A stretch of DNA of 64,000 nt from Planctomycetota bacterium. GTDB lineage: Bacteria > Planctomycetota > UBA8108 > SXIK01. Location of the stretch: NCBI GenBank assembly GCA_965223265.1, contig OZ244999.1, positions 3,744,001-3,808,000 of the forward strand, written 5' to 3'. The notes under the pieces are model-generated. The model saw nothing but the letters and a program-made list of their open reading frames with translations. It was not told the origin of the DNA and ran no database searches. The translations under genes and the position numbers were made by a program. Positions 165-13,149 of the stretch are shown here, piece after piece; position 1 is the first letter of the stretch; every line of letters begins with the position of its first letter.

Positions 165-2228
165 TCACTGCGACGAGCCCTCGGCTCGCCCTGCCTTAGC
201 GCAGAGGCGGTTCAGCGCCGATGCAGAAAAGATCAGCGGATAAAGCTTCTCGTAGTACCATAGGTTCGCGAAATAAAAACCGATAGGTGTCGGCCGCTCG
301 AGGCAGCCGGATGCAACCGCGCTCAGGAGCCACTCCGCGCCGCGCTCGATCCGTGCACTGTGCCGCCCCAAAGCGCCATCCGACTCCGTGAGTGCGCTGA
401 GGGCCATCGCGGTCTCTTCCACCGACGAAATCATCGGCGCGGGCGCGGGAGCACGCCCACAGGCTGAGGCCGCGACGCCGTCGCCACCCCAGCCTCCATC
501 GCGCTGCTGGACGCCCGCGAGCCAATCGCTCCCACGCTTGACCATCGCCGCGATCGTGCCCGCATCAGCCCAGCCATGACAAGCGCGCTCCCTCGGAGAC
601 CCCGGTGTCACAAGTCGCGCCAGCGCATCGAGAACACGGGACGTTCCGTAGACAGGATTCTCGAATCCCTCGGCAACTTCATTGCCGAACCAAAGCGGCA
701 CCCACGCCCCGTCACCACGCTGCGCCCGTTCGAGGTAGGCGACCAAACGGCGAGCGGCACGGTCGACACGCGCGCCGAGCGCCGGCTCCAACTCGTGGCG
801 CCAAACAGAAAACGCCGCCAGAACGTGCGCCGAGAGATCAGCGCCGCTGCGATCGAACGGCAAGTTTCCCCAGCCGCGGCAAAACGTCGGGATGCCGCCG
901 TCGCGATTCTGCACTCCCAGGAGCCAGTGGACGCCACGCGCAGCAGCCTCGCGCACGCGTGAGTGTTCGCGTGAGTGCTCGCGCGGCAGAGCGTTGAGCG
1001 CGAGAAGCGCCCCGGCGGTGTCGTCCGCGTCGGGCACTCCACCGCTCAGATCCGTCCACGCCCAACCGCCCGGTGGTGACATCGTGTAGAAGTGAACGTC
1101 GCGGTACTGCTGCTCAAGCAGCCAGCTCCGCACCGACGCCGCGTCCAGCGCTTCAATTTGATGCTGTGGCCCCGCAGCCAAAGCGTTCACACTGAGCGTC
1201 GTCACCCACGTTGCCAGGTTGGTGTCAATCGGCCAGCTTCCATCATCCCGCACCGAGGACTCGAGAAACCGGATCGCCGACCTCGTCACCGGATGCTCGC
1301 TCTGGCCGCAGCCCGCCAGGCTCATGGCGACGAACGACGTCAGTGGCACGGCCTCGAGAAAGCCGCCGCTTTCGGGTTGAATCGTCTGCAGTAGCCTGAG
1401 CGTTCGCCGTCGCGTCTTGTTGCGAACCGCGCGTGAGAACGGATTCGACGTCGGCAAATGGTGATGCCGCACTTGTCCGATCGCGATGAGCGCTGGAAGC
1501 GCATAACTCACGACGGGCAAACCGAGAAATCTGAACCACGAGCGAGGCAGCGATGCGAGCTCGAAGGGAAGCTGCTTCACGAGATGCCAAGCTTCCTTCT
1601 CCGAACCGAGCGCACCGGCAAGCGCACAGTGGGTCAGAATCGGAACGGAAAACGTGCGATCTTCGCCATAGGACGAGGTGATCGCCGCTGCCAGCGAGCT
1701 CACATCGTCACCACCCACCGCCGCGTCGATCCACGCTCGTGCCCGATCGATCGCGATGCGCTCTGCGTCGCCCGACTTCCCAGCGCACACGAGCGCGGCC
1801 CAGCATAGGGTCGTTGTGCTCAGGTTGCTCCGACTGCGCACCGTATCTCCCCAACCGCCGTCGTCGTTTGCATGTTCGACGAGCCAAGAGAGGCCTCGCT
1901 CGACGAGTCGTGCGTGCGAAGCAGCACCCGAAGGCACTTCTTCAGGCGTCACCCGCTCGGCGTCAAACATCGTCAGTGCCAGAGACGCAGTGGCAGTTGA
2001 CAGCGCGCTCGTCGAGAGTTCACCACTCCAGTGGGAGTGGTCTTGACGCGCAAGAAGCAGATCGACAACCTCGTCACGTGCTTTTTCTAACCGAGCAATC
2101 AACTGCGGCGAAAAACTAATGTTGGAGGTCACAGGTGTGTCGTCAAGTAGCTGTTTCGTGAACCGAGCGGACCGATTTGCGCCAAAAGGCGAGTGCACAC
2201 GAGGTGAAGAACGTGAAACATCATCCAA
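165..2228 (-). CDS. Squalene-hopene cyclase-like class II terpene cyclase
   Basis: Intact DXDD protonation motif (GGVPDADDTAGA); QW-type repeats (ANDDGGWG, QPESGGF, QNRDGG, QRGDGAW, QQRDGGWG); C-terminal PIGFYFANLWYYEKLYP. Start uncertain (GTG at 2132 possible). Confidence 0.88.
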   Translation of the reverse strand: MDDVSRSSPRVHSPFGANRSARFTKQLLDDTPVTSNISFSPQLIARLEKARDEVVDLLLARQDHSHWSGELSTSALSTATASLALTMFDAERVTPEEVPSGAASHARLVERGLSWLVEHANDDGGWGDTVRSRSNLSTTTLCWAALVCAGKSGDAERIAIDRARAWIDAAVGGDDVSSLAAAITSSYGEDRTFSVPILTHCALAGALGSEKEAWHLVKQLPFELASLPRSWFRFLGLPVVSYALPALIAIGQVRHHHLPTSNPFSRAVRNKTRRRTLRLLQTIQPESGGFLEAVPLTSFVAMSLAGCGQSEHPVTRSAIRFLESSVRDDGSWPIDTNLATWVTTLSVNALAAGPQHQIEALDAASVRSWLLEQQYRDVHFYTMSPPGGWAWTDLSGGVPDADDTAGALLALNALPREHSREHSRVREAAARGVHWLLGVQNRDGGIPTFCRGWGNLPFDRSGADLSAHVLAAFSVWRHELEPALGARVDRAARRLVAYLERAQRGDGAWVPLWFGNEVAEGFENPVYGTSRVLDALARLVTPGSPRERACHGWADAGTIAAMVKRGSDWLAGVQQRDGGWGGDGVAASACGRAPAPAPMISSVEETAMALSALTESDGALGRHSARIERGAEWLLSAVASGCLERPTPIGFYFANLWYYEKLYPLIFSASALNRLCAKAGRAEGSSQ

Positions 2229-2270
2229 CAGCTCGCTGACTGGCCAGCCTGAAGTTGTGGGCGAGAGGCA

Positions 2271-3230
2271 TCACTCGACGAGCGCCAAATGACCCAAGGC
2301 GAGGAGACCGTAGTACGTGTATTCGCAATCTAGGACATCGTCAGCCCAATGGCCGAGAAAGCCGCCACGGTTTGTCCACAATGAGTCGACGAAGTCGAGA
2401 CACGGCTCTCTGAGGTGGTCGAACGATCGCTGCTGGCCGGCAAGAGCGTGCAGCGCCGTTGCCGTCGACAAGAGATCAGGTAACGGTGTCGCCGGCGCGG
2501 CGCGAAAGCCGCCCTCCACATAGCACGCGTCCAGGAGCCACTTGCCGACGTCGTGCTCCAGAGTGAACTCGAGGTGCCGAGCGATCGTCGCGGCGGCGGC
2601 GGCGGCCGGCGTCGTGCCGCTGAGCGCTGCTGGCTGATTGCCGTACGATCCGTCCGCGGTTTCCATCGCCTGCACAGTCGCGGCAGCGCGTTCTCTGTCG
2701 AGGAGCCCAGGAGCGGAGTCAAAGGGTGCGTCCTGTTCGATCCCAAGCATCAAAAACACATCGTAAACGGTTTCGAACTCGCGCTCGGTTTCGAAACGAG
2801 GACTCGGAGCGGCGCCGGAGCCTGACGCCGTGGTGGCATCACGCTCGGACGGCTCTCCTTCAGCGCCGCCGCGACGCAGCCGACGCGCGTGATCACGAAG
2901 GCGTAGACACTTGTCGGCCTCGAGCGACGCGTCCGGAAGACTCGCCCAAGCACGCGCCAGGCACGCCAGGTGGACGAGATCGAGTCCCTCTCCGTCGCCG
3001 AACTCCTGCAGGTACGCAGCGATCTGCTTGCTCGGAATGTCTGCCTGAAGCGCCAGAAGACACTCGATGCCGAAAACCGTGTAGTAAAGATCGGCCTTCT
3101 CTTCCCGATCCGCGAAACCACCCTCGGGGAGCAGACGGCTCAGGACAAAGTCGCGAACGAGTTCGCTCGAGTCATGCAGAAGCCGTGGCGCCAGCCTGGC
3201 TACCTGCAGCATTTCGAGCCTCAAACTCAT
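2271..3230 (-). CDS. Prenyltransferase/squalene-oxidase repeat protein (protein prenyltransferase beta-subunit-like alpha/alpha barrel)
   Basis: Repeated GGF/DGSY turns (EGGFAD..DLYYTVFG, EGGFRA..DLLSTATAL, RGGFLG..DCEYTYYGLLALG). Overlaps the upstream gene by 59 bp. Confidence 0.78.
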   Translation of the reverse strand: MSLRLEMLQVARLAPRLLHDSSELVRDFVLSRLLPEGGFADREEKADLYYTVFGIECLLALQADIPSKQIAAYLQEFGDGEGLDLVHLACLARAWASLPDASLEADKCLRLRDHARRLRRGGAEGEPSERDATTASGSGAAPSPRFETEREFETVYDVFLMLGIEQDAPFDSAPGLLDRERAAATVQAMETADGSYGNQPAALSGTTPAAAAAATIARHLEFTLEHDVGKWLLDACYVEGGFRAAPATPLPDLLSTATALHALAGQQRSFDHLREPCLDFVDSLWTNRGGFLGHWADDVLDCEYTYYGLLALGHLALVE

Positions 3231-4890
3231 TGCACCAACCTTTGATCTCGAGGTCGCCGAACACCTTGCCGAGGACGCGCCGCAGAAGCCCTTTCACGCT
3301 GGCATGCTCCACCCCCCAAAGTGTGCGTGTCGCTTCGTCCTTGTACGCCTCGAAGAGCTCTCGGCAACGCTCCTCGACGCCCAAGCGTGCCATCCTCTCA
3401 AGGATCTCCTGTGCATCAACACGATCGATCTCGCGTCGCCACAGCTTGCCGAAAAACTCACGATCTCGGCCTTTGGCACGGTCGTACGCCACCGCCAACG
3501 GCAACGTCGGCCGCAGCGCGACAAGATCGCTCGCTTCACTCGTGTCCGCAAGATCGTTCAGGTCATCCTGGATCTGATAAGCGATGCCCAGCGCGCGACT
3601 GAAATCCTCAATCGATGCGTCAAGACCCGTCTGGCCAGCAAGAACAGCGCCGAGCTTGAGCGCCACCTCGAAAGCTGGCGCTGTTTTCTCACGGAAAATA
3701 TTGACAACTTCGAGGGGAGCGAGCGGTCGCGGATCACGCGCCCAACAGAGCTCCGCCCCTTGGCCGCGGCAGAGCGTTCGATGTCCCACGGAGGCGACGC
3801 GTACGAGCTCCGCTATGGTCGCTCCGTCGGCTCCCGTGAGTGCGAGTTGACGGTAGCCCTCGCCGATCAAAAAGTCGCCAACATTAAGCGCCACAGCGAC
3901 CCCATACTCTGCGTGGAGGGTCTGCTCGCCGTAGCGGAGTGCATCCTCGTCCTCGATGTCGTCGTGAATCAGACTCGCCTTGTGAAAACACTCCACCGCG
4001 ATCGACACCCGCTTGAGGGCCTCGGAAGGCTCAGCTTGTGAATCGTCGTGCAGCGCCTGAAACACCGCTGCGGTGAGAAAGGGGCGCCATCGTTTGCCGC
4101 TGCGCGCCAGCCACTCGAGGGCGATCGATTCCGTCTCCCCTGCAGGTGCACCGAGATGCTTCTCTATAGTTTCAGAGTCGAACCAGCCACGCACTTCGTC
4201 GCGTAGTGCTGTCAGGTTGAGGCGTCGCGTCTTGTCTTCGCTGGTCAACTGAATCACGTCCCAGATCCACTCGAGATCCACGGATGTATCCACGCAGTCG
4301 TCTTGCAGTAGCGGAATGGCGACACCAGGAATTGCCGCAGCCTCCATGAAAGGAAAAGCACGCTCGAGAACACTGAGGCAACTGACGCCGACGATCGCAT
4401 CGATCTTACCCGTCTCGATGATCGCCATAACGATCGGCGAGCCCTCCGCCACCAAGACGGCGTAGCCAAGTCTCTCAGCTTCCGTCTGCAAGTCCTGAAT
4501 CGAACACATGCCGCACTTCTTGCACAGAAGGCCGAACTCGTCAAACGGCGCCGGGCAGTGCGCCTCGACGCGAAGACACTTGGGCAGCAGAAGCAGCCGT
4601 CGCTCGTACGGAATTGAAGCGAGGGTTTCGCGCCAGAGCTCGTTATTGATGAGTACAGCAGCGAAATCGAGGAACTTCGCGTCAACGTTTTCGACGGCGA
4701 CAAACTCTTGAGCCGCCTCCCTCAGGCCGGTCATCGGAATCGGCGGGACCAGTTCGCGACGCGCGACAAAAGACGCGACTTTGCGACGGACCCACTCCCG
4801 CTGCTCACGCGTGGCGGGAATGTTTTCTTGAGGCGCACGAGTGGGCGGCTGTGCAGCAAGAGTCGGCAGGATCTTGAGCGGGCTCGACAA
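3172..4890 (-). CDS. DUF116 (Cys-rich) domain fused to a trans-polyprenyl diphosphate synthase
   Basis: GKRWRP, FARM (HKASLIHDDIED..RYG), GQ, KTA and SARM (YQIQDDLND). N-terminal LLLLPKCLR..C..CKKCGMC..IVGVSC..C pattern of DUF116. TTG start at 4890 has a GGAGA SD (ORF track start 4911). Confidence 0.85.
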   Translation of the reverse strand: MSSPLKILPTLAAQPPTRAPQENIPATREQREWVRRKVASFVARRELVPPIPMTGLREAAQEFVAVENVDAKFLDFAAVLINNELWRETLASIPYERRLLLLPKCLRVEAHCPAPFDEFGLLCKKCGMCSIQDLQTEAERLGYAVLVAEGSPIVMAIIETGKIDAIVGVSCLSVLERAFPFMEAAAIPGVAIPLLQDDCVDTSVDLEWIWDVIQLTSEDKTRRLNLTALRDEVRGWFDSETIEKHLGAPAGETESIALEWLARSGKRWRPFLTAAVFQALHDDSQAEPSEALKRVSIAVECFHKASLIHDDIEDEDALRYGEQTLHAEYGVAVALNVGDFLIGEGYRQLALTGADGATIAELVRVASVGHRTLCRGQGAELCWARDPRPLAPLEVVNIFREKTAPAFEVALKLGAVLAGQTGLDASIEDFSRALGIAYQIQDDLNDLADTSEASDLVALRPTLPLAVAYDRAKGRDREFFGKLWRREIDRVDAQEILERMARLGVEERCRELFEAYKDEATRTLWGVEHASVKGLLRRVLGKVFGDLEIKGWCNEFEARNAAGSQAGATASA

Positions 4891-5105
4891 CGTGTTTCTC
4901 CAGTTCGACAATCAGTCCCGTCGCCGCGGCGCCATGAACCAGTTCATGACAGGTTCTGAAGACGCCATCGAGCAGCCACACGCGTAAAATCGGGCGACCG
5001 ACTCAGGACATGGCATAAAGGAAGTATTGTAATCAAAGAGATGAGAGGCGGGAACGATTTTTCGTCTCGTGCGGCCCACATGTGCGACCTCGAGAGCGCA
5101 CCCGC

Positions 5106-5978
5106 TCAGTCGGTCGTACCCGGCGGAGGCATTTCGCCCGCGCTTCTCTCCGCCGCGGCCTCCGCCTTCTGCTTGATTTGATCAAGCGACGGCAGCGACA
5201 TCAGAACTTCCTGCGGGATGTCGAGATCGCCCTGGAGTTTCTTAAGACAGCGCATGCGCTCCTTGAGCGCCTTCGTCTCGTCGCGCTCTTTGCTGAAGCG
5301 GGATGCAGCGCGCTCGTGGCGTTCGCGCAGCATGCTGTAGATGTCACCGCCGAGAAGAGCTGACACGTCGACCTTCATCTTCTCGCGCTCGACATCGGCT
5401 TCCTTCACCTCGTCGCCGTTGATCGGCCCGGCGTTGTACTTCGGGAAAAGGATCGCCACCTCAGGGCAGACGCGAGAACATGCCGGACAGTTGGTCTTAC
5501 ACTTGTCAGGGTTGCGCACCTCGATTTCGCTGTCTGCATCAACGCCGTAGACGTCGAAGAGACAAAAACTGAGGCACTGCATGCAGTTCGTGCAGCGCTG
5601 ATAATCGATCACGGGAAACCACGGCTTCCACTCGCCTGGGACGTAGGCGCCAAGCTCCGCTCGAGTCTGTTCGACAGCTGCCACGATCGCTTCCGGCGCT
5701 AGACCGCGGATCTCTAGGACACGCACATCGACATTCGCCCCAGCGGCAGTCTCGCCGACAAGCTTGCCCGGCGCTGCGTCTGACACTCCCTCGCCGAGCA
5801 GCACCAGATGACTCGCATCGGCTGCGGCAACCTGTCCGGTGCCGCGTGTCGACGTCACCGAAAACCCTGCCACGAGGAGCGCTTCAATCACTTCAGCGCG
5901 GCGAGCGTCGTCGAGCTCCTGCCCCTCAGTTCCTTCTTGAAGTAGCAACCGAAGAGGCGCACTTGTCGCTGTGCTCAT
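5106..5978 (-). CDS. 2x[4Fe-4S] ferredoxin-domain protein
   Basis: CTNCMQCLSFC and CKTNCPACSRVCP motifs. ATG at 5978 has a GGAG SD and an ATGA overlap with the upstream stop, so the ORF-track extension to 6182 is spurious. Confidence 0.85.
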   Translation of the reverse strand: MSTATSAPLRLLLQEGTEGQELDDARRAEVIEALLVAGFSVTSTRGTGQVAAADASHLVLLGEGVSDAAPGKLVGETAAGANVDVRVLEIRGLAPEAIVAAVEQTRAELGAYVPGEWKPWFPVIDYQRCTNCMQCLSFCLFDVYGVDADSEIEVRNPDKCKTNCPACSRVCPEVAILFPKYNAGPINGDEVKEADVEREKMKVDVSALLGGDIYSMLRERHERAASRFSKERDETKALKERMRCLKKLQGDLDIPQEVLMSLPSLDQIKQKAEAAAERSAGEMPPPGTTD

Positions 5979-6403
5979 GGGGTCTCCTGATCTTCCGTCG
6001 ACGCGGCCGCTCCTGAGGTGGCTCCGGACGTGGCGTCTGAGTTGCCTGCTACCGTGCCGCCACTCGCCGTCGCGCGCGCCTCGCCCAGCAAACCCGCGAC
6101 GACGTCGCTCGCATCGCTCGTCCGCATATTCTCGATGCAGACGTCGCTCGCGAGGGGCGCACCCGCGGCTTTGAAAAGCCATTTGACCGAACGCGGAAAA
6201 CAGGCCGCGATCCGCACCTCCTGGTCTCCCTCGGCGAGTCGGCGTAGCGATGGATCTCGACGGGCGGACAGTTCACAGAGGTCAGGCACAGCGTCGAACG
6301 CTCGCCCCGAAGCGGCAAGGCGAGCCAAGACCTCGCGTTTGACGGACTCTGGAATAATCTTGGCGTAAGCGCAGTGGCAGTAAAGAATCCGGTGTGAAGC
6401 CAT
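5975..6403 (-). CDS. Small Cys-rich protein resembling the HdrA N-terminal Fe-S domain
   Basis: RILYCHC...DLC...IAACFPR...ENMR matches the CHC / C / AACxPR / NIR pattern of HdrA N-termini. Translationally coupled to the ferredoxin gene. Confidence 0.7.
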   Translation of the reverse strand: MASHRILYCHCAYAKIIPESVKREVLARLAASGRAFDAVPDLCELSARRDPSLRRLAEGDQEVRIAACFPRSVKWLFKAAGAPLASDVCIENMRTSDASDVVAGLLGEARATASGGTVAGNSDATSGATSGAAASTEDQETP

Positions 6404-6498
6404 ACGGTGTCAAGGGTGCTTTCGTAGCGCCGATCGCGAGGTGCGAAGCAAGGTATGTGTAGACCGTTTGTATACAGTCACACGACGGGATGCAACGT

Positions 6499-7611
6499 TT
6501 ATGCGGCGTCCGTGTCGCGGTGCGTCGGCTCCGGACGGCCAGGACGAAAACACTCTACGTGGTCAACTTCGATTGAAACGGCACCACCCAGGTGATCGGA
6601 GTGAATGGCGCTTTCGAAGGCGGAGCGCAGGGCCTCGGGCGGAGCTTCGGCGCGCAGGTTGACGACCAGTTCAGCACTGGTCATCAGATCGGAAAGGCGC
6701 TGCCCAAACTCCGGTGTCCCGTCATCCCGCACCAGGTTGATCAACGCGATCTCCCCAAGCACGCTCTCCGGCGACAGCGTCATCTTGAGATGCGCGATGT
6801 CGTGAACAGTTCCCGACAGCGACGATTGAAACTGCCGCATCAGGCTCTCCAAAAAGACGTTGCCATCGATTGGATTCACCGCCTCAATCGCGACTGTCGC
6901 ATTGAGCCAGCCAAGTTTCGACTCGCCTTCGGCGTACACATCGTAGTCAACAGACATCGTGCGGGCATGCCCCATCTCGCGCGCCAACACCCAATCGAAC
7001 CAAGCGTCAAGACCCGCGCCGCTCTTCGCCGAAACCTCGAACAGCACCTTGCTTCCATAACGACGCTCGAGTTCGGCCATCAGCGCTTGCCGATCCGCCG
7101 CCTCTAGCGTGTCGATTTTGTTGACAACAATCGCCTCAGCTTCCTCCAGCTGCTTGAGGTAGATGTACTCCACCTTCTCGGAGAATCGCCGCCCCTCGAC
7201 AAGACCCAACATGCGTCGGGCGCGCGTCGGGTCGACGAGCACGCTGAGAGGAGCGATGCGGAAGCTCTCTCCGTACATCCTACGTAGAGGATAGGTGACC
7301 GAAGCGACCAGGTCCGTGCAACTACCGACGGGCTCAGCGAGAAACGCCTGCGGTCGTGCCTCCGCGGTCAACCGCTCGGCTGCTTCAACGAGAGATCGAA
7401 AACGACAACAAAAGCAGCCGCCTGGAATCTCTGCGACGCGATATCCCTGCTGCCGAAGCGTCTCTGTGTCGACGAGACCGGCCCCCTGGTCGTTGGTGAT
7501 GAGCCCGACCCTGTCGCCGCGGGCGGTCAGGCGGCGCGCCAAGCGGCCGATCGCGGTGGACTTCCCGGCGCCAAGGAACCCGCCGATCATGATGTAGAGA
7601 GCTTTGGTCAT
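6499..7611 (-). CDS. COG0523/CobW-type G3E GTPase (putative metallochaperone)
   Basis: Walker A GGFLGAGKST, CxCC metal motif GGCFCC, AEPVG, NKID. ATG at 7611 with ATGA overlap to the gcvH-like gene. Confidence 0.88.
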   Translation of the reverse strand: MTKALYIMIGGFLGAGKSTAIGRLARRLTARGDRVGLITNDQGAGLVDTETLRQQGYRVAEIPGGCFCCRFRSLVEAAERLTAEARPQAFLAEPVGSCTDLVASVTYPLRRMYGESFRIAPLSVLVDPTRARRMLGLVEGRRFSEKVEYIYLKQLEEAEAIVVNKIDTLEAADRQALMAELERRYGSKVLFEVSAKSGAGLDAWFDWVLAREMGHARTMSVDYDVYAEGESKLGWLNATVAIEAVNPIDGNVFLESLMRQFQSSLSGTVHDIAHLKMTLSPESVLGEIALINLVRDDGTPEFGQRLSDLMTSAELVVNLRAEAPPEALRSAFESAIHSDHLGGAVSIEVDHVECFRPGRPEPTHRDTDAA

Positions 7612-8177
7612 GCGCTTCCTGAATCTTCGCTTGAGTTGAGATCGCCGGACTTCCACGGCTGCTCGAGCATCTTATCGATCGTCCGATTGAGGTGCTCGAT
7701 ATAACCGTCCACGTCGACAACCGCAGGGTCGGGCCTCCCCGAGATCTCGTACAACCAACCGTCGCCGTACGGGTCGCGGCAGATCGACTCGAAATCCGCG
7801 GGCGTCTGTGTGTTGGCGCCGAGAAAGCTCCCGTCGCCGACGCAATAGATGTCCGAAACCGCCTTGAAACCTTCGATCCAGCCGATCGTGTTGCCGGCAG
7901 ATACCGCGCCGCCCGGCGCGACTTCCAACTCGAACTCGACGATCTCGCCAAGCATGCGCGTTGCGAATGAGGTCAGTCCGATCCGCCACGTGCCTGGCGT
8001 TCGCTCAGACAGCCAGTAATGAGATAAGCTGTACGTATAAGCTCGCGGCAGCCGCGTGGAAAAGTGGTTGCGCTTGAACCGCACGAGCTCCTGCGAGCCG
8101 TCGCCTCCTGAACGTTCTGTCAATCCGCACTCCAAGTCGCTTTTCATGCCAGCGTCGTCGATGGCGCCATCCGCCAT
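7608..8177 (-). CDS. gcvH: Glycine cleavage H-like lipoyl-carrier protein (orphan)
   Basis: YSLSHYWL..RIGLTSFA..LGEIV, IEGFKAVSDIY (lipoyl Lys retained), DPYGDGWLY. No gcvT/gcvP/lpdA in the window. Start uncertain. Confidence 0.8.
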   Translation of the reverse strand: MADGAIDDAGMKSDLECGLTERSGGDGSQELVRFKRNHFSTRLPRAYTYSLSHYWLSERTPGTWRIGLTSFATRMLGEIVEFELEVAPGGAVSAGNTIGWIEGFKAVSDIYCVGDGSFLGANTQTPADFESICRDPYGDGWLYEISGRPDPAVVDVDGYIEHLNRTIDKMLEQPWKSGDLNSSEDSGSA

Positions 8178-8202
8178 GTCGTCAAAGCGAAGGCCATCTC
8201 CT

Positions 8203-8232
8203 CTTATAGTTACTCAAAGCAAACTCGGTCAA
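8203..8232 (-). promoter_or_regulatory. Possible internal sigma70-type promoter for gcvH-GTPase genes
   Basis: Minus strand TTGACC (8232-8227), 18-nt spacer, TATAAG (8208-8203) in the intergenic gap. Confidence 0.3.
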
Positions 8233-8282
8233 GGAAAAGGGCACGTGTGGCCCGCGTGGTCGTCACGGCAGCACGAGTCGCG

Positions 8283-9536
8283 TCAACCACACGATCCGGA
8301 CGCCGGCAAACAACTCGCGTCCATCGGTGTCGAGCCACCTTGGGATGCGGCTGCGCGCACTCGCTTGACAGCGTCGACGATCCGTGCAGCAGCCAGTTTG
8401 ATCTCGCGAGACGTGGTCGGACGCCCGAGGCTGAGACGCACCGACGAACGCGCCCTTACATCGTCGCCAAAGAGGGCCTTGAGGACGTAAGACCCGTCAC
8501 TCGACGCTGACGAGCAGGCGGCCCCGGACGAGGCCGCAACACAATCGAGTGCGCCCAAAAGCGCCTGCGCGTCGACGCCGGCGAACGAAACATTTAGGTT
8601 ATTGGGCAGGCGCTGCTCGAGCGATCCGTTCAGCACCACACCGTCAAGGGCGCCCTGCAGCGCAGCGAGCAGTTCGTCGCGCAGCCGCTGTGCCTGCTGG
8701 GCGTCCGCTTGACGCTGCGCGGAAGCGATTTCACATGCCTTCCCCAACCCCACGATGCCGGAGACGTTCAGCGTCCCCGATCGCATGCCGCGCTCATGTC
8801 CACCGCCGTCGATCAGCGGCTCCAAGCGCACTCGTGGTCGACGGCGCCTGACATAGAGCGCGCCAACTCCTTTGGGTCCGTACATCTTGTGCCCGGAAAG
8901 CGACAAAAGGTCGACGCTCAATCGTTCGACGCTGACATCGATGTACGTGGCAGCTTGAGCAGCATCGGTGTGCAACGGCACGCCCCGCTGGCGACAAAGC
9001 AGACCGACCTCGGCGATCGGATTGAGAGTACCGATCTCGTTGTTGGCCAGCATGAGCGTCACCAGCGCCGTACGTTCGTTCATTGCATTCGCTACGGCTT
9101 CGACGTCGATGCGTCCGTCGGATTCGGGCTTCAAATACGTCACCTCGCAGCCCTGACGTTCGAGTCTACCGCATGCATCCAAGACCGCCTTGTGCTCGAG
9201 CGCAGACGTCACCACGTGCGGCCGCCGGTGTGGCGATCGAGCAACGACACCCCGAACGGCCAAGTTATCGGACTCTGTCGCCCCCGACGTGAACACCACT
9301 TCGCGCGGGTCGCACTCGAGTAGTTGGGCGACACTCCGGCGGGCCGCAGCGACCAGCTCGGCGGCTTCGGCGCCGAAAGCATGCTGCTGGCTGGCGGCAT
9401 TGCCAAACACGTGCGTGAACGTCGGCTGCATCGCCTCGACGACCCGCGCATCACAAGGCGTGGTCGCGTGGTAGTCCAGATAGATGTGGTCTGCGGATTT
9501 CACAGGCGCATTCAAATGCAATCGTCGTGCCGTCAC
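8283..9536 (-). CDS. iscS: Cysteine desulfurase, group I (IscS/NifS type)
   Basis: YLDYHATTP, FTSGATES, HTDAAQ, PLP lysine in SGHKMYGPKG, RSGTLN, catalytic SSGAACSS. No iscU/iscA adjacent. Confidence 0.92.
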   Translation of the reverse strand: MTARRLHLNAPVKSADHIYLDYHATTPCDARVVEAMQPTFTHVFGNAASQQHAFGAEAAELVAAARRSVAQLLECDPREVVFTSGATESDNLAVRGVVARSPHRRPHVVTSALEHKAVLDACGRLERQGCEVTYLKPESDGRIDVEAVANAMNERTALVTLMLANNEIGTLNPIAEVGLLCRQRGVPLHTDAAQAATYIDVSVERLSVDLLSLSGHKMYGPKGVGALYVRRRRPRVRLEPLIDGGGHERGMRSGTLNVSGIVGLGKACEIASAQRQADAQQAQRLRDELLAALQGALDGVVLNGSLEQRLPNNLNVSFAGVDAQALLGALDCVAASSGAACSSASSDGSYVLKALFGDDVRARSSVRLSLGRPTTSREIKLAAARIVDAVKRVRAAASQGGSTPMDASCLPASGSCG

Positions 9537-9879
9537 AAAGGATCTCTGGGCGCATCGTTCCCAGGAAGCAGTATACTACGCTGAGAGACCATATGAATGC
9601 TCGGCGCAGCGCGGAACGAGTGCCCACACGCCCCAAACGTTCACTCCCATCGAGGCCGCGAGCGTGAACTGCGGAGGTTCTGGGCCTGTCAGGGTGGATC
9701 GATCGATTCTCCTTTCCCAGTTTTTGCGCCACGGATATGATGCGGCTGGCCGGATGATCAGAAGCCACGACAAGTCCTAGATTCTGCCATCGACACTGCC
9801 TCCGGCTGCGCCTGAGAGTTCTCGTCGCGGCTCGCACACCGAACCCGCGCCTCTCTGAATTCGCCGACTGAAAGCTGCG

Positions 9880-11196
9880 ATGACTACACCTCTCTCGAAG
9901 GAAAAGACGGAAGTTGGAAGTTACTTCATCTCCAACTACCCGCCTTTCAGTTTCTGGAACGCCGAGTCCATTCAAGACGCTCGGGATGCACTGCATAACC
10001 CGGCGCCGTCTGGTGTGCCTTTGGGACTCTACTTGCACGTGCCGTTCTGTCGCAAGCGCTGCAAATTCTGCTACTTTCGCGTTTATACAGACAAGAACAG
10101 CAAGGAGATCGAGCGTTACCTCGCCGCGCTGACGCGGGAGATCGAGATCTACAGCCGCCTGCCCGTCATGCAGAATCGTTCGCTTGGATTTGCTTACTTC
10201 GGCGGCGGCACCCCGTCGTTCTTGAGTGAAAAGCAGCTGCTTTCGCTCGTCGAGCGCCTGCGCCAGCTCGTCAGCTGGGATGACGCCGAGGAGGTAACGT
10301 TCGAGTGCGAGCCCGGCACCCTGACGGAAAGCAAGCTCAGCGCCATCCGTGACATCGGCGTCACCCGCCTCAGCCTCGGCGTCGAGAATCTCAGCGACGA
10401 GGTGCTCGAGGAAAACGGACGCGCGCACCGCAGCCCAGAAGTGTTTCGCACCTACGAATGGGCACGCGCGACAGGGTTTCGTCAGATCAACGTTGACCTC
10501 ATCGCCGGTATGGTCGGCGAGACGGAGGCTAATTGGGAAAGCTGTGTCCGTAAGACGATCGAGCTGGCGCCGGACTCCGTAACGATCTACCAGATGGAGT
10601 TGCCGTTCAATGCCGTCTACTCCTCCGAGCTGAAGGAAGGGCGTTTGGCTGTTGCCGATTGGGCGACCAAGAGGCGCTGGGTGAGCGAAGCGTTCGACGC
10701 CTTCGCGGCAGCGGGTTACTCGGTTTCAAGCGCGTACACGCTGGTGAAGGACCCGCATGTCCGGTTCGTCTACCGCGACTCACTATGGCACGGCGCCGAC
10801 ATGATCGGCAGCGGTGTCGCGTCGTTCTCACACGTCGGCGGCGTTCACTACCAAAACCTCGACGGCATCGACGCGTATTCTGAGCAGCTCGAGCGCGGCG
10901 AACTGCCGCTCTCACGCGCGCTCAAGGTCACCGAGCGACAGCTACTGATTCGCGAGCTCATCCTGCAGCTCAAACTCGGCTGGCTCGACCGAGAGTACTT
11001 CCTGAACAAGTACGAGATTGACATCGCAGCTGCATTCCGACCGACGTGGGAGAAGTTACAGGCGGAAGGTTTTCTCGCCAGCGAAATCGAAGCGCCCGAC
11101 AAGAAACTACGCCTCACACGCACCGGATTGTTGCGCGTTGACGCCCTTCTTCCGTCGTTTTTCGAACCCGAGCATCGCGGTGCTCGTTATACGTAA
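9880..11196 (+). CDS. HemN-like radical SAM enzyme (class C methyltransferase/oxidase family)
   Basis: LYLHVPFCRKRCKFC (CxxxCxxC), YFGGGTPS, RLSLGVE, NVDLIAGMVGET, HemN C-terminal LRLTRTG. Confidence 0.9.
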   Translation: MTTPLSKEKTEVGSYFISNYPPFSFWNAESIQDARDALHNPAPSGVPLGLYLHVPFCRKRCKFCYFRVYTDKNSKEIERYLAALTREIEIYSRLPVMQNRSLGFAYFGGGTPSFLSEKQLLSLVERLRQLVSWDDAEEVTFECEPGTLTESKLSAIRDIGVTRLSLGVENLSDEVLEENGRAHRSPEVFRTYEWARATGFRQINVDLIAGMVGETEANWESCVRKTIELAPDSVTIYQMELPFNAVYSSELKEGRLAVADWATKRRWVSEAFDAFAAAGYSVSSAYTLVKDPHVRFVYRDSLWHGADMIGSGVASFSHVGGVHYQNLDGIDAYSEQLERGELPLSRALKVTERQLLIRELILQLKLGWLDREYFLNKYEIDIAAAFRPTWEKLQAEGFLASEIEAPDKKLRLTRTGLLRVDALLPSFFEPEHRGARYT

Positions 11197-11213
11197 ATCA
11201 CCCGACACTCTCT

Positions 11214-11792
11214 ATGCCACCTGAAACGACCGACCTGACGCTGGACGCGCTTCTGAAACTGTTCCCCGCGAGCGCGCTCGAGCACCTGAGTGCCGAGCTC
11301 GTCAGCGCCGACGACGTGCCCCAGCCGTTTCGACGCTTGCTTGTCCACCATCAGCACATGACGGTGACACTCGAGGACGAGTACCAGAGCACACTGGAGC
11401 TCCAGATCCTGGCGCGAAAGCACAATGGTACGAAGTACGCGCGCCTGCTGAGACTCACCGCCGGCAGCGACGGACCGGTCGTCCTCGTCGGTATCATGCG
11501 CTTTCACTTGGAATACTGCAGCTCCCAGGTCGCAGCGGAAATCGTCCGCGGCACGGCGCCCTTGGGACGGATTCTGATCGATCACGACGTCATGCGCTCG
11601 ATCGAATGTCATGCATACTTGCGCTTCAAACTCGACGACGAGCTGCGTTCGCTCTTCGCGCTGCCAGCGGACGCGTCCGCGTCAGAGACGTACGGCCGCA
11701 TCGCTCGCATCATATGTGACGGCGAACCCGCTGTGGAGCTCCTGGAGATCGTTGCTCCAGCGGTGACGTCGGAGTCTTCTTCACTCCTCTGA
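11214..11792 (+). CDS. Chorismate lyase (UbiC/UTRA-fold)-like protein
   Basis: LLVHHQHMTVTLE and PLGRIL resemble the UbiC/Rv2949c SLTxxL and PLGxxL motifs; about 190 aa with terminal ELLEIV strand. Confidence 0.5.
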   Translation: MPPETTDLTLDALLKLFPASALEHLSAELVSADDVPQPFRRLLVHHQHMTVTLEDEYQSTLELQILARKHNGTKYARLLRLTAGSDGPVVLVGIMRFHLEYCSSQVAAEIVRGTAPLGRILIDHDVMRSIECHAYLRFKLDDELRSLFALPADASASETYGRIARIICDGEPAVELLEIVAPAVTSESSSLL

Positions 11793-11883
11793 TGGCTCGT
11801 CATCCGATCGCTCATCGTTCATCGCTACGTCTCGACGACACGACAGAAGTCTTCACTCTTTACCACACTACGACGAAACGGAC

Positions 11884-13149
11884 ATGACCAGCAAGAAGCT
11901 CGACTTCGCCGACGTCGTCGTGATCGGCGGCGGCCCCGCCGGCTCCACCACGGCGGCGATCCTGGCCCAGAGCGGCGTCAACGTTGTCGTCTTAGAGAAG
12001 GAAACATTCCCTCGCTTCCACGTCGGCGAATCGTTGATTACGGAGACCTATTGGACGTTCGAGCGCATTGGTATGCTGAAACGTCTCCAGGACTCTCCTT
12101 TCCCTCGGAAATACAGCGTCCAGTTCATTTCTGAGAGCGGCAAGGCGTCGCGACCATTTTACTTCTTCGAGCGCGACGACCATGAAAGTTCGGTGACGTG
12201 GCAGGTGGACAGGGCTGAGTTCGATCAGATGATGCTCGACAACGCCCGTGAGCGAGGTGCGACAATTGTCACCGGAGCCACCGTCGAACAAGTGCTCTTC
12301 GAGAACGGTACCGCGACCGGCGTCAAGTGGCACGACGAGACCGGACGCGAGGCAACGCTGAATGCGCGCGTCGTGGTCGATGCCAGCGGCCTCCACTCGG
12401 TCATGGCGCGGCAGCTGCGGATTCTGAAAAAAGACCCGAAGCTCGTCAAAGCGGCAGTGTACGGCCATTTTCGTGGCGCTCGTCGCGACAGCGGCATCGA
12501 CGAAGGCGCCACGCTGATCATCCACACGCAGGGCAACCGAGGCTGGTTCTGGTACATTCCTCTCAGCCACGACCGCGTCAGCGTCGGCGTCGTCGGAGCG
12601 GCCCGCGAGCTCATGCGCGGCGGAGAAAAGCCACAGCAGATCCTCGAGCGTGAAATCGCTGCCTGTCCTTCCGTCCAAGACCGCCTGAAGAGCGCGACGA
12701 TTTGTACGGACGTCCACGCCACAAGCGACTACACGTACCGCGCCTCGCGCTGCGCCGGGCCCGGCTACATGCTCGTCGGTGACGCGTTTGGATTCCTCGA
12801 TCCGATCTACTCCTCGGGAGTACTGTTAGCGCTCAAGAGCGGCGAGCTCGCGGCCGACACCCTCATCGAAGCGCTGGCCGACGGCGACGTCTCGGCTGAT
12901 CGCCTCTCCACCTATGGCACTCAGCTGAGTCTCGGCCTGGAGACGTTCCGTAAGATGGTTTACGCGTTCTACACCCCGGGGTTCAGCTTTGCGAACTTCG
13001 TCTCGCAGCACCCGGAACACCGCGACAGCCTCGTCCGCATTCTCATCGGCGACGTCTTCAAGGACGACACGGACGACATCTTCGCCGCCATGAGCACAAT
13101 GTGCGATCTCCCGAAGCCGCTCCCGGCACTGGGGTCGGATGCGTCGTAG
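11884..13149 (+). CDS. FAD-dependent oxidoreductase of the flavin-dependent halogenase family
   Basis: GGGPAGS, FPRFHVGESL, FPRKY (position of catalytic Lys), WxWxIP motif (GWFWYIP), VGDAFGFLDPIYSSGV. Confidence 0.85.
   Translation: MTSKKLDFADVVVIGGGPAGSTTAAILAQSGVNVVVLEKETFPRFHVGESLITETYWTFERIGMLKRLQDSPFPRKYSVQFISESGKASRPFYFFERDDHESSVTWQVDRAEFDQMMLDNARERGATIVTGATVEQVLFENGTATGVKWHDETGREATLNARVVVDASGLHSVMARQLRILKKDPKLVKAAVYGHFRGARRDSGIDEGATLIIHTQGNRGWFWYIPLSHDRVSVGVVGAARELMRGGEKPQQILEREIAACPSVQDRLKSATICTDVHATSDYTYRASRCAGPGYMLVGDAFGFLDPIYSSGVLLALKSGELAADTLIEALADGDVSADRLSTYGTQLSLGLETFRKMVYAFYTPGFSFANFVSQHPEHRDSLVRILIGDVFKDDTDDIFAAMSTMCDLPKPLPALGSDAS

What the first reader, a model, noticed from the sequence alone, without database searches (positions are those of the whole stretch)
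165..13149. Candidate undescribed pathway: divergent terpene-cyclase / Fe-S / lipoyl-carrier / radical SAM / halogenase cluster
Seen: 8 leftward genes (desulfurase, GcvH-like, COG0523 GTPase, HdrA-N-like, ferredoxin, DUF116-polyprenyl synthase, prenyltransferase-beta-like, SHC-like) face away from 3 rightward genes (HemN-like radical SAM, UbiC-like, halogenase-type) across a ~340-bp gap. Three gene pairs overlap. The block is bounded by a convergent gene on the left and vapBC on the right. Established: these families supply a prenyl chain, protonation-initiated cyclisation, 4-hydroxybenzoate-type aromatics, radical methylation, flavin halogenation and Fe-S/sulfur supply. None of the canonical partners (hpnCDE/hpnH, gcvTP, hem genes, iscU) is in the window. 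Inference: a single pathway to a cyclised, methylated and possibly halogenated or sulfur-containing polyprenyl-aromatic (meroterpenoid, quinone-like lipid or cofactor). I know of no characterised pathway with this combination.
Basis: partly seen in the sequence, partly recalled or inferred. Interest (0 to 1): 0.88.

Follow-up and report, generated by a model that had tools for sequence, protein, structure and literature searches.

The report
Conserved terpenoid/iron-sulfur cluster beside halogenase module
Eight leftward genes are one copy of a gene set of unknown product that recurs in several bacterial phyla and joins isoprenoid-making enzymes to iron-sulfur, lipoyl-carrier and sulfur-supply proteins, while the three rightward genes are a separate halogenase module that is only sometimes coupled to it.

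Summary
All 11 genes, their strands, the 343-bp divergent gap and three gene overlaps are there.

The left arm is a copy of a conserved set: GcvH-like, CobW-like GTPase, an orphan 4-Cys protein, a 2x[4Fe-4S] ferredoxin, a radical SAM enzyme, a DUF116-polyprenyl synthase fusion, a prenyltransferase-beta-like toroid, an SHC-like cyclase that keeps DxDD, and an IscS-like desulfurase. It recurs in Planctomycetota, Verrucomicrobiota, Acidobacteriota, Lentisphaerota, KSB1 and Omnitrophota. Here the radical SAM gene lies 1.26 Mb away.

The right arm is a separate trio: a HemN paralogue, a chorismate-lyase-fold protein and a true flavin-dependent halogenase. It resembles the proposed baaAB locus of a planctomycete.

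The arms are interleaved or adjacent in at least five planctomycete genomes and co-occur strongly in that phylum. But 34 of 77 fusion-bearing planctomycetes and 18 of 20 fusion-bearing Verrucomicrobiota lack the halogenase. The modules are therefore separable.

The product is unknown, and eight full-text searches found no description. One pathway is partly supported; the chemistry is inference.

The parts
165..2228 (-). SHC-like class II terpene cyclase paralogue (687 aa)
   Evidence: Pfam SQHop_cyclase_C/N. Below the NCBIfam SHC cut-off, 104.7 against 431 bits. The PDADDT (DxDD) motif is kept in all 16 cluster-type SHC-like sequences aligned, window included; the alignment also held 2 canonical-type SHCs. 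Best solved relative is A. acidocaldarius SHC, E 9.8e-15. A canonical SHC lies elsewhere in the genome, 468 bits.
2271..3230 (-). Prenyltransferase-beta-like alpha/alpha toroid (319 aa)
   Evidence: Pfam Prenyltrans. The profile's best solved relatives are RabGGTase-beta at 7.6e-16 and FTase-beta at 2.6e-12. The Zn-ligand positions of RabGGTase-beta align to Leu and Tyr. Found next to the fusion in 30 of 53 loci with at least 3.5 kb downstream. Its start overlaps the end of the PPS gene by 59 nt.
3172..4911 (-). DUF116 (Cys-rich) fused to trans-polyprenyl diphosphate synthase (579 aa)
   Evidence: Pfam DUF116 and polyprenyl_synt. FARM is DDIED and SARM is DDxxD. Ala/Ser sit at -5/-4. Seven Cys are conserved, including CxxCxxC. 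The protein is 55-71% identical across phyla. The fusion was noted but not characterised in PMC5898192.
5106..5978 (-). 2x[4Fe-4S] ferredoxin-type protein with a strongly conserved C-terminal extension (290 aa from ATG 5978)
   Evidence: Pfam Fer4 families. Eight invariant Cys and a long conserved tail. Found in 26 of 50 loci with at least 6 kb upstream. Present elsewhere in all 5 Verrucomicrobiota genomes in which the fusion stands alone.
5975..6403 (-). Orphan 4-Cys protein 'p142'
   Evidence: No Pfam, NCBIfam or PDB relative. C9, C11, C43 and C68 are invariant. 701 representatives among 1.84 billion proteins, many fused N-terminally to the ferredoxin; 3 of 3 tested were fusions. Predicted flavodoxin-like fold, pLDDT 82.
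6499..7656 (-). COG0523/CobW-family GTPase (start at GTG 7656 or ATG 7611)
   Evidence: Pfam cobW 82.8 bits. P-loop and the GGCFCC (CxCC) motif are conserved. Found in 23 of 50 loci with at least 6 kb upstream.
7608..8177 (-). GcvH-like lipoyl-carrier paralogue
   Evidence: Pfam GCV_H. Scores 64.5 bits against a cut-off of 115.85. The lipoyl-Lys motif EGFKAxSD is at least 90% conserved. The genome has a true gcvH elsewhere, 142 bits.
8283..9536 (-). IscS-like class I cysteine desulfurase
   Evidence: NCBIfam IscS 486 bits against a cut-off of 548. One of three high-scoring paralogues in the genome. Sits at the end of the operon in 8 of 20 planctomycete loci.
9537..9879 (.). 343-bp divergent intergenic region
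   Evidence: Gap measured. One promoter-like match faces each way, minus strand at 9597-9570 and plus strand at 9714-9741. These are consensus matches only.
9880..11196 (+). HemN-like radical SAM paralogue (not the housekeeping HemN)
   Evidence: TIGR00538 184.8 bits against a cut-off of 325. A true hemN lies elsewhere, 564 bits. Best solved relatives are HemN at 2.3e-33 and NocN at 1.4e-21. Adjacent to the 192-aa gene in 11 of 20 p192-centred planctomycete loci. Also adjacent in a Verrucomicrobiales, a Lentisphaerales and a Chthoniobacteraceae genome.
11214..11792 (+). Chorismate-lyase-fold protein 'p192'
   Evidence: No HMM match. AlphaFold model pLDDT 93.5. Best folds are DUF98 protein 2nwi (E 2.2e-8) and E. 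coli chorismate lyase 1jd3/1fw9 (E 8e-6 to 9e-5). JGI names relatives 'chorismate-pyruvate lyase'. The nearest Atlas clusters carry PF01947 or PF04345 in 11-19% of members.
11884..13149 (+). Flavin-dependent halogenase
   Evidence: Pfam Trp_halogenase 118.8 bits. Carries GGGPAG and WFWYIP (WxWxIP). The ten best solved matches are halogenases or close homologues, from 8zop at 4.8e-67 through Mpy16, PltA, ChlB4, CndH, Bmp2 and RadH to CmlS. The Lys of FPRKY aligns with their Lys. Geranylgeranyl reductase scores only 6.5e-15.
13232..13917 (-). Right boundary, not part of the system: vapC (PIN) plus an 86-aa upstream ORF
   Evidence: PIN E 1.1e-13; the 86-aa ORF has no Pfam match. Translations read.

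Best explanation
The region holds two conserved modules that can work together.

Module 1 (165-9536, minus strand) is the window's copy of an uncharacterised nine-gene system. The window copy has eight of the nine genes.

Shown for module 1:
- It is conserved as an operon or a dispersed gene set in several phyla.
- Its synthase has intact catalytic motifs.
- Its cyclase keeps the DxDD proton donor.
- Its carrier keeps the lipoyl lysine.
- It carries five proteins or domains with conserved cysteine sets: DUF116, p142, the ferredoxin, the radical SAM enzyme and the CobW CxCC motif.

Inferred for module 1:
- The fusion makes an all-trans polyprenyl diphosphate, probably C20 or longer.
- The SHC-like enzyme, with or beside the toroid protein, cyclises it by protonation.
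- The radical SAM enzyme is reduced through the ferredoxin/p142/DUF116 chain and supplied with sulfur or clusters by the IscS paralogue.
- It modifies the isoprenoid, possibly by sulfur insertion, with the GcvH-like protein as thiol or sulfur carrier or as tether.
- The CobW GTPase loads a metal site.

Module 2 (9880-13149, plus strand) is a HemN-paralogue / chorismate-lyase-fold / halogenase trio. By analogy with the proposed baaAB locus it would make a halogenated 4-hydroxybenzoate-type aromatic.

In this and some other Planctomycetota the two modules are probably coupled, either as a meroterpenoid or as a shared regulon. The coupling is facultative.
For: Module 1 as a unit.
- tblastn of the window proteins on 80 loci anchored on the fusion found PT in 41, Fdx in 41, p142 in 37, CobW in 31, GcvH in 29, IscS in 20 and SHC-like in 13 of 80.
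- Corrected for contig ends: Fdx 26, p142 25, CobW 23 and GcvH 22 of 50 loci; PT 30 and SHC 11 of 53 loci.
- In 20 PPS-centred planctomycete loci: Fdx 16, GcvH 15, PT 15, SHC 15, CobW 12, radical SAM 12, IscS 8.
- Complete nine-gene operons occur, for example in L145, L146 and L153.
- In 5 of 5 Verrucomicrobiota genomes where the fusion stands alone, Fdx (55-59% identity) and PT (44-52%) lie elsewhere.
- p142 and Fdx are fused in some lineages.
- The fusion tree follows the phyla, with 4 label changes, the minimum possible.
- Motifs.
- The genome holds separate housekeeping SHC, hemN and gcvH, and two other IscS paralogues.

Module 2.
- Halogenase signatures and chorismate-lyase fold.
- The trio is an operon in 6 of 20 p192-centred planctomycete loci. 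HemN-like sits next to p192 in 11 of 20.
- The trio is also an operon in a Verrucomicrobiales and a Lentisphaerales genome.
- 42 of 43 p192-bearing genomes have the halogenase.

Coupling.
- L126 reads Fe-ADH, propeller, HemN-like, GcvH-like, Fdx, SHC-like, fusion, p192 on one strand.
- L130 reads SHC-like, fusion, p192 ... PT, ABC, FtsX.
- L147 has halogenase and HemN-like 2-5 kb from the IscS end.
- In G242 the halogenase is 7 kb from the fusion.
- L043 has the same layout as the window.
- Across 301 Planctomycetota genomes: both 43, halogenase only 12, fusion only 34, neither 212, odds ratio 22.
Against: - No product, transcript or mutant was seen. All chemistry is inferred from family membership.
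- The toroid protein lacks the Zn ligands of protein prenyltransferases by alignment, so its role is open.
- No aromatic prenyltransferase (UbiA or ABBA type) turned up among the recurrent neighbours. The meroterpenoid link therefore has no identified joining enzyme.
- The modules are separable. 34 of 77 fusion-bearing Planctomycetota lack the halogenase at E <= 1e-80, and 12 of 55 halogenase-bearing ones lack the fusion.
- In 201 Verrucomicrobiota, 18 of 20 fusion-bearing genomes lack the halogenase, and 2 of 4 halogenase-bearing ones lack the fusion.
- One Acidobacteriota genome with the cluster showed neither p192 nor the halogenase.
- In most genomes with both modules they lie hundreds of kb apart.
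- Related genomes are not independent, so the odds ratio overstates the association.
- Sulfur insertion rests only on the co-presence of a desulfurase, a radical SAM enzyme with four extra Cys, and a lipoyl carrier.
Confidence: 0.45

Rival explanations
1. There are two independent pathways that merely sit side by side. One is an isoprenoid/Fe-S system of general, perhaps membrane-related, function. The other is a stand-alone secondary-metabolite module that makes a halogenated hydroxybenzoate of the baaAB type. Co-occurrence reflects shared lineage and lifestyle, and adjacency reflects clustering of accessory genes.
For: - The modules occur without each other: 34 fusion-only and 12 halogenase-only genomes among 301 Planctomycetota.
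- 18 of 20 fusion-bearing Verrucomicrobiota have no halogenase.
- The f3/g5 genomes carry the trio without the fusion.
- In those genomes the trio sits with its own Fe-ADH, propeller, glycosyltransferase and ABC/FtsX exporter genes.
- Passages of bioRxiv 10.1101/723874 propose that baaA and baaB plus an unlinked methyltransferase suffice for 3,5-dibromo-p-anisic acid.
Against: - In L126, genes of both modules are interleaved on one strand with short gaps: HemN-like next to GcvH-like, and p192 next to the fusion.
- In L130, p192 directly follows the fusion with no halogenase nearby.
- Five genomes from four families show linkage in three or more different gene orders. Two given genes fall within 10 kb of each other in a 7-Mb genome about 0.3% of the time by chance (my estimate).
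Confidence: 0.35
2. Module 1 is a protein-modification or cofactor-maturation system rather than a free-lipid pathway. The GcvH-like protein, or p142/ferredoxin, would be the substrate. It would receive an isoprenoid-derived group through the prenyltransferase-beta-like toroid and be further processed by the SPASM-like radical SAM enzyme.
For: - The toroid's closest solved relatives are protein prenyltransferase beta subunits.
- The radical SAM enzyme's best NCBIfam matches, all below cut-off, include peptide maturases (WgkB, ScmF, GeoRSP, PapB, MftC) as well as NirJ/AhbD.
- The GcvH-like protein keeps its modifiable lysine and is a dedicated paralogue.
- The operons are compact and leave no room for a separate precursor gene.
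Against: - The Zn ligands that activate the protein thiol in prenyltransferases are not conserved.
- No alpha subunit is present.
- An SHC-like cyclase with DxDD has no known role on protein-bound prenyl groups (recalled).
- No ligase or transferase for loading the lysine is in the cluster.
Confidence: 0.12
3. The region is an ordinary hopanoid/squalene or respiratory-quinone (ubiquinone/menaquinone-type) locus built from divergent copies of known enzymes.
For: The families are SHC-like, polyprenyl synthase, chorismate-lyase fold, HemN-like (class C radical SAM methyltransferases act on menaquinone; recalled) and a flavoprotein of the UbiH-related superfamily.
Against: - Every member scores below its equivalog cut-off.
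- The genome has a canonical SHC, hemN and gcvH elsewhere.
- No hpn, UbiA/MenA, UbiD/X or UbiE-type gene recurs near the cluster in 122 loci: 80, 20, 20 and 2.
- The flavoprotein carries halogenase signatures, not hydroxylase ones.
Confidence: 0.05

Closest known systems
baaA/baaB locus of Planctomycetales strain 10988 (proposed route to 3,5-dibromo-p-anisic acid; bioRxiv 10.1101/723874, passages read)
   Same: A chorismate-lyase-like gene lies directly beside a flavin-dependent halogenase gene in a planctomycete. The methyltransferase is not clustered there either.
   Different: - Here a HemN-like radical SAM gene precedes the pair and stays with it across phyla.
- The pair is linked to or co-occurs with the isoprenoid system.
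- The baa assignment itself was not validated genetically, as the paper states.
Squalene-hopene cyclase and other class II (DxDD) terpene cyclases, including the B. subtilis heptaprenyl synthase / SqhC route to C35 sporulenes (recalled)
   Same: - Two-domain alpha/alpha barrel cyclase with the DxDDT motif.
- Encoded next to a trans-polyprenyl synthase whose chain-length region resembles long-chain enzymes (the comparison with long-chain enzymes is recalled).
   Different: - Only 104.7 bits against the SHC cut-off of 431.
- A paralogue of the genome's true SHC.
- No squalene synthase or hpn genes nearby.
- Accompanied by Fe-S, GTPase, lipoyl-carrier and desulfurase genes that no known terpene pathway uses, to my knowledge.
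Lipoate assembly and lipoate-binding-protein systems (LipA; sHdr-LbpA clusters with LipS1/LipS2 radical SAM enzymes and a geranylgeranyl-reductase-like flavoprotein; recalled, papers not read here)
   Same: A dedicated GcvH-like carrier with conserved lysine is encoded with a radical SAM enzyme that has extra Cys, with Fe-S electron carriers and with a sulfur source.
   Different: - No lipoate ligase and no Hdr-like subunits.
- The radical SAM enzyme is NirJ/AhbD/SPASM-like rather than LipA/LipS-like.
- The cluster is fused to isoprenoid enzymes.
Protein prenyltransferase beta subunits (RabGGTase, FTase)
   Same: PFTB-repeat alpha/alpha toroid. These are the best solved sequence relatives.
   Different: - No alpha subunit.
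- The positions of the Zn ligands Asp-x-Cys and His carry Asp-x-Leu and Tyr (the ligand identities are recalled).
Archaeal DUF116 proteins (arCOG02078; PMC5898192, section 3.6 read)
   Same: The same Cys-rich domain with CxxCxxC. In archaea it is associated with a SIMIBI-type NTPase (ArsA-like), and here with CobW. The authors predicted a role in electron transfer and noted the polyprenyl synthetase fusion in Pirellula staleyi (Psta_0175).
   Different: Here the domain has no N-terminal membrane helices visible in the sequence (by eye). It is covalently joined to the synthase.

Membership tests
Squalene-hopene cyclase (TIGR01507) | Score over the curated equivalog cut-off | tested here: not met
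   104.7 bits against 431.1. The genome's true SHC scores 468 bits on PF13243.
Class II (protonation-initiated) terpene cyclases | DxDD(T) general-acid motif | tested here: met
   PDADDT aligns with the DVDDT of the genome's canonical SHC in 16 of 16 cluster-type sequences.
trans-Isoprenyl diphosphate synthases (PF00348) | Pfam score over cut-off; first and second Asp-rich motifs | tested here: met
   141.2 bits against 27. DDIED and DDxxD are conserved in at least 90% of 63 sequences.
DUF116 (PF01976) | Pfam score over cut-off; conserved Cys including CxxCxxC | tested here: met
   125.4 bits against 25. Seven conserved Cys.
Protein prenyltransferase beta subunit | PFTB repeats | tested here: met
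   PF00432 40.2 bits against 26.5. RabGGTase-beta E 7.6e-16.
Protein prenyltransferase beta subunit | Zn ligands Asp, Cys, His (identities recalled) | tested here: not met
   'PDVCYS' aligns to 'PDLLST' and 'DPFHT' to 'DLYYT'. The alignment runs through repeats, so this needs care.
Flavin-dependent halogenases | GxGxxG, WxWxIP and the catalytic Lys (motifs recalled) | tested here: met
   GGGPAG at 15 and WFWYIP at 221. The Lys of FPRKY aligns to Lys in 8zop, Mpy16 and PltA. Top solved hits run from 4.8e-67 to 2.3e-36 and nine of the ten are named halogenases.
Geranylgeranyl reductase family (TIGR02032) | Score over the curated cut-off | tested here: not met
   157.2 bits against 158.8. The solved reductase 3oz2 scores only 6.5e-15.
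Chorismate lyase (UbiC / DUF98 superfamily) | Fold | tested here: met
   Model pLDDT 93.5. 2nwi E 2.2e-8 with TM 0.62/0.74; UbiC 1jd3 E 7.9e-6 with TM 0.54/0.62.
Chorismate lyase (UbiC / DUF98 superfamily) | HMM membership and catalytic residues | tested here: inconclusive
   No Pfam or NCBIfam match. Profile against PDB gives 2nwi at E 0.006. Catalytic residues were not mapped.
Oxygen-independent coproporphyrinogen oxidase HemN (TIGR00538) | Score over the curated cut-off | tested here: not met
   184.8 bits against 324.95. The genome's true hemN scores 564 bits.
Class C radical SAM methyltransferases | Methyl transfer using two SAM; family-specific motifs | not tested
   The only data are similarity to ChuW/HutW at 179.6 bits, below the cut-off of 400, and to NocN at 1.4e-21.
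Glycine cleavage H protein (TIGR00527) | Score over cut-off; lipoyl lysine | tested here: inconclusive
   64.5 bits against 115.85, so the score is not met. The lysine in EGFKAxSD is conserved. A true gcvH lies elsewhere.
COG0523 / CobW GTPases | Pfam score; CxCC metal motif | tested here: met
   82.8 bits against 20.7. GGCFCC is conserved.
IscS cysteine desulfurase (NF010611) | Score over the equivalog cut-off | tested here: not met
   486.4 bits against 548. Aminotran_5 scores 260 bits.
baaAB-type locus | Adjacent chorismate-lyase-like and halogenase genes in a planctomycete; homology to BaaA/BaaB | not testable with these tools
   Adjacency is seen. BaaA/BaaB sequences were not on hand, and the preprint's supplements are closed.

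The most novel reading that the evidence does not exclude
Module 1 is a previously unrecognised type of isoprenoid pathway, old within the PVC group and its neighbours. A cyclised polyprenyl chain would be thiolated or otherwise radically modified on, or through, a dedicated lipoyl-type carrier protein. The electron chain would be private: an orphan 4-Cys protein, a ferredoxin, and a DUF116 domain fused to the synthase. The product would be a new sulfur-containing terpenoid lipid or cofactor. In Planctomycetota it would further be joined to a halogenated chorismate-derived ring.
Probability: 0.25. Interest if true: 0.9.

Novelty: new variant of a known kind. Interest (0 to 1): 0.7.

Why it matters
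- If module 1 makes a distinct lipid or cofactor, it gives a function to several orphan families at once: DUF116, the 4-Cys p142 family, a dedicated GcvH paralogue, a COG0523 GTPase and an SHC paralogue.
- It may also point to an unknown membrane or redox component in environmentally abundant Verrucomicrobiota and Planctomycetota.
- The fusion protein is 55-71% identical across phyla and its tree follows the phyla. That suggests strong, old selection rather than a sporadic secondary-metabolite cluster.
- The halogenase trio widens the one proposed planctomycete halogenation locus (baaAB) to a conserved three-gene module found in at least three phyla.
- The question is directly testable, because cultured carriers exist. 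Pirellula staleyi Psta_0175 is named in PMC5898192, and Armatimonas rosea is named by a source.

Tried and rejected
- Literature. Eight full-text searches gave only Makarova 2015 (the fusion noted, electron transfer predicted), the baaAB preprint and one unrelated figure legend. The terms covered DUF116; COG1852/PF01976/arCOG02078/IPR002829; planctomycete with halogenase and chorismate lyase; SHC with H protein and polyprenyl; GcvH with polyprenyl, radical SAM and terpene cyclase; 8ZOP; and polyprenyl synthetase with SHC, desulfurase and CobW. Subscription-only papers are not covered.
- p142. No relative was found by Pfam (E up to 1), NCBIfam, PDB profile search, Foldseek (best E 5e-3) or VIA-align (best Z 8.1, generic alpha/beta folds).
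- Remnant of the radical SAM gene. tblastn of that protein on window 1-14200 gave nothing better than E 0.8.
- Other recurrent neighbours. SSF symporter, GFO/IDH, ApbE, UvrD and an ABC exporter recur in marine Verrucomicrobiota loci. I judged this to be synteny among close relatives, not cluster membership.
- Horizontal spread as the reason for the high identity. The fusion tree needs only the minimum 4 label changes (FastTree, 63 rows, the top hits only).
- Complex prediction for the fusion with the toroid protein never ran, because the queue was full at every try. Whether they bind is left open.
- The rest of the window (14-42 kb) holds NDH-2, NHL and PQQ-type propellers, a TPR protein, altronate dehydratase and ZnuABC. 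Nothing there is evidently linked.

Full report
**Setting.** The window is G000:C1:3744001-3808000 of a single 9.18-Mb contig. The region is about 60-65% G+C. The phylum sample drawn around it, and the nearest named relatives, are Planctomycetota.

**Observation.**
- Minus strand: SHC-like (165-2228), a Prenyltrans toroid protein (2271-3230), a DUF116-polyprenyl synthase fusion (3172-4911), a two-cluster ferredoxin-type protein (5106-5978), a 142-aa protein without family (5975-6403), a CobW-family GTPase (6499-7611/7656), a GcvH-like protein (7608-8177) and an IscS-like desulfurase (8283-9536).
- Plus strand, after a 343-bp gap: a HemN-like radical SAM protein (9880-11196), a 192-aa protein without family (11214-11792) and a Trp_halogenase-family flavoprotein (11884-13149).
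- Overlaps: PPS/PT overlap by 59 nt. p142/Fdx and GcvH/CobW show ATGA overlaps if the conserved-N-terminus starts are used.
- Left boundary: a convergent NHL-repeat gene.
- Right boundary: a minus-strand PIN gene with a small upstream ORF.
- A terminator-like hairpin follows the cyclase gene, and one promoter-like match faces each way in the gap. These are consensus matches only.

**The left arm is a conserved system.**
- The fusion protein has thousands of relatives, typically 55-71% identical. Sources name them from Planctomycetota, Verrucomicrobiota, Acidobacteria, Armatimonas rosea and an Actinomycetota bin.
- A scan of one genome per species found 440 encoding stretches. The best 80 loci come mostly from Verrucomicrobiota. 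Others come from Planctomycetota, Acidobacteriota, Methylomirabilota, Omnitrophota, KSB1 and Lentisphaerales.
- tblastn of the window's proteins on these loci found PT in 41, Fdx in 41, p142 in 37, CobW in 31, GcvH in 29, IscS in 20 and SHC-like in 13 of 80, nearly always in the window's order and on the fusion's strand.
- Many loci are cut by contig ends. Among 50 loci with at least 6 kb upstream the counts are Fdx 26, p142 25, CobW 23, GcvH 22 and IscS 15. Among 53 with at least 3.5 kb downstream they are PT 30 and SHC 11.
- Clustering all ORFs of the loci revealed a further member that the window lacks. It is a radical SAM protein of about 416 aa, present in 18 loci. Its best NCBIfam matches are NirJ/AhbD/SPASM-type, all below cut-off. 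It has four conserved Cys beyond CxxxCxxC.
- The window's genome has this radical SAM gene 1.26 Mb away, at 72% identity, among unrelated genes. The window holds no remnant of it.
- In 20 planctomycete loci centred on the fusion the counts are Fdx 16, GcvH 15, PT 15, SHC 15, CobW 12, radical SAM 12, p142 11 and IscS 8.
- Several of these loci show the full order GcvH, CobW, p142, Fdx, radical SAM, fusion, PT, SHC, IscS.
- A shorter 'type B' form, GcvH-Fdx-SHC-fusion(-PT), occurs in other families.
- No other gene family recurs.
- Where the fusion seems to stand alone, the partners exist elsewhere in the genome. Fdx and PT were each found in 5 of 5 such Verrucomicrobiota genomes.
- p142 and Fdx are one polypeptide in some lineages.
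- A FastTree of 63 fusion proteins needs only the minimum number of phylum changes. That fits vertical descent. The tree covers only the best hits.

**What the left-arm proteins look like.**
- The synthase half has both Asp-rich motifs and small residues before the first one. From memory, this pattern is that of medium- or long-chain enzymes.
- The DUF116 half has seven conserved Cys. Makarova et al. predicted a flavodoxin-like, metal-binding, electron-transfer domain and noted this fusion (PMC5898192, section 3.6 read).
- The cyclase keeps DxDDT in 16 of 16 sequences. It is nevertheless a distant paralogue of SHC, and the genome has a canonical SHC.
- The toroid protein's nearest solved relatives are protein prenyltransferase beta subunits. 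The positions of their Zn ligands carry Leu and Tyr.
- The GcvH-like protein keeps the lipoyl lysine and is additional to a true gcvH.
- CobW keeps CxCC.
- The desulfurase is one of three close paralogues.
- p142 is an orphan. It has four invariant Cys and 701 representatives in 1.84 billion proteins. It has no Pfam or PDB relative. The confident model shows a generic alpha/beta fold.

**The right arm.**
- The flavoprotein is a flavin-dependent halogenase by every test available. It has WxWxIP and the conserved Lys. Its ten best solved matches are halogenases or close homologues, from 4.8e-67 to 2.3e-36, while geranylgeranyl reductase scores 6.5e-15.
- The 192-aa protein folds with pLDDT 93.5 into the DUF98/chorismate-lyase fold. 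JGI names and Atlas neighbours agree.
- The HemN-like protein is a paralogue of the genome's true hemN.
- In 20 planctomycete loci centred on p192, HemN-like is adjacent in 11 and the halogenase in 6. An Fe-ADH and a PQQ-type propeller often precede them, and sometimes a glycosyltransferase and an ABC/FtsX exporter.
- The same trio is an operon in a Verrucomicrobiales and a Lentisphaerales genome, and is split in a Chthoniobacteraceae and a KSB1 genome.
- The closest published case is baaA/baaB of Planctomycetales strain 10988. There a chorismate-lyase-like gene and a halogenase gene were proposed, without genetic proof, to give 3,5-dibromo-p-anisic acid (bioRxiv 10.1101/723874, passages of the abstract and section 2.3 read). 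I could not compare sequences.

**Are the arms one pathway?**

For:
- L043 repeats the window's layout.
- L126 (G228) has Fe-ADH, propeller, HemN-like, GcvH-like, Fdx, SHC-like, fusion and p192 packed on one strand.
- L130 (G190) has SHC-like, fusion and p192, then the toroid gene followed by the ABC/FtsX pair.
- L147 (G074) has halogenase and HemN-like 2-5 kb from the desulfurase end.
- In G242 the halogenase lies 7 kb from the fusion.
- In 301 sampled Planctomycetota, 77 have the fusion, 55 the halogenase and 43 p192. The fusion and halogenase overlap in 43, giving an odds ratio of 22. 42 of 43 p192 genomes have the halogenase.

Against:
- 34 fusion genomes lack the halogenase and 12 halogenase genomes lack the fusion.
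- Most genomes with both keep them far apart.
- Only 1 of 27 fully flanked fusion loci shows the right arm.
- In 201 Verrucomicrobiota, 20 have the fusion and 4 the halogenase, with only 2 in common.
- One Acidobacteriota carrier showed neither p192 nor the halogenase.
- Related genomes are not independent, so the statistics are descriptive.

My reading is two separable modules that are coupled in part of the Planctomycetota, this genome included.

**Mechanism.**

Shown:
- Conservation of the gene set.
- Intact catalytic motifs of the synthase, the cyclase and the halogenase.
- The conserved lipoyl lysine and the cysteine sets.

Inferred:
- The fusion makes a polyprenyl diphosphate.
- The cyclase closes rings from the distal double bond.
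- The radical SAM enzyme draws electrons through ferredoxin, p142 and DUF116, and draws sulfur or clusters from the desulfurase.
- It modifies the product, with the GcvH paralogue as carrier and CobW as metal chaperone.
- The trio supplies a halogenated, chorismate-derived ring.

No joining enzyme is identified. The role of the toroid protein is open, and sulfur insertion is only one possibility.

**Novelty.** All parts belong to known superfamilies, so this is a new variant of isoprenoid biosynthesis rather than a demonstrably new kind. The combination with a lipoyl-type carrier, a COG0523 GTPase, orphan Fe-S proteins and a desulfurase is unprecedented to my knowledge, and was not found in the eight searches listed. 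Subscription literature and the closed preprint supplements may hold more.

Noticed in passing
G000:C1:5005593-5006837 (locus L090 1498-2754, minus strand), outside the window: The radical SAM gene that sits inside the cluster in other genomes lies here, 1.26 Mb from the window. It is 72% identical to the L011 copy. Its neighbours are a GGDEF gene and a FecCD/ABC transporter.
   Followed up: yes
L009 879-5244 (about 14 to 9.8 kb left of the window start): An ABC ATPase and a 1176-aa FtsX-type permease. They are 56% and 40% identical to the pair that sits directly beside the HemN-like/p192/halogenase trio in L124 and L125. A related pair lies beside the toroid gene in L130 (57% and 36% identical to the window genome's pair) and near the halogenase in a KSB1 genome (L165). 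This may be the exporter of the system.
   Followed up: partly
L009 12954-13868 (about 2 to 1.1 kb left of the window start): A PqqD-like ORF, a radical SAM fragment and a third ORF overlap in different frames over 0.9 kb. This could be a frameshifted or decayed radical SAM/PqqD gene, or an assembly error.
   Followed up: no
L157-L161, L126, L130: A 'type B' form of the cluster occurs in other planctomycete families. The fusion is 37-40% identical over its whole length, measured for L126 and L130 only, and runs to 610-650 aa. The ferredoxin is about 360 aa in L126 and probably includes the p142 domain. CobW and the radical SAM gene are often not adjacent.
   Followed up: partly
window 14000-17000: G+C drops to 54-56% just right of vapBC. 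The stretch holds a 663-aa ORF (14400-16391) and a 311-aa ORF with no family match. It may be an inserted island.
   Followed up: no
window 18045-19334 and 30585-33291: A type II NADH dehydrogenase (NDH-2) gene and a ZnuABC-type metal uptake operon lie 5 and 17 kb from the cluster. No recurrent linkage was seen in other genomes.
   Followed up: no
L150 8048-9583: In this locus a different, 511-aa radical SAM protein occupies the slot before the fusion where the usual 416-aa radical SAM gene sits. ORF clustering put an ORF of L155 in the same family, but I did not scan that one.
   Followed up: no
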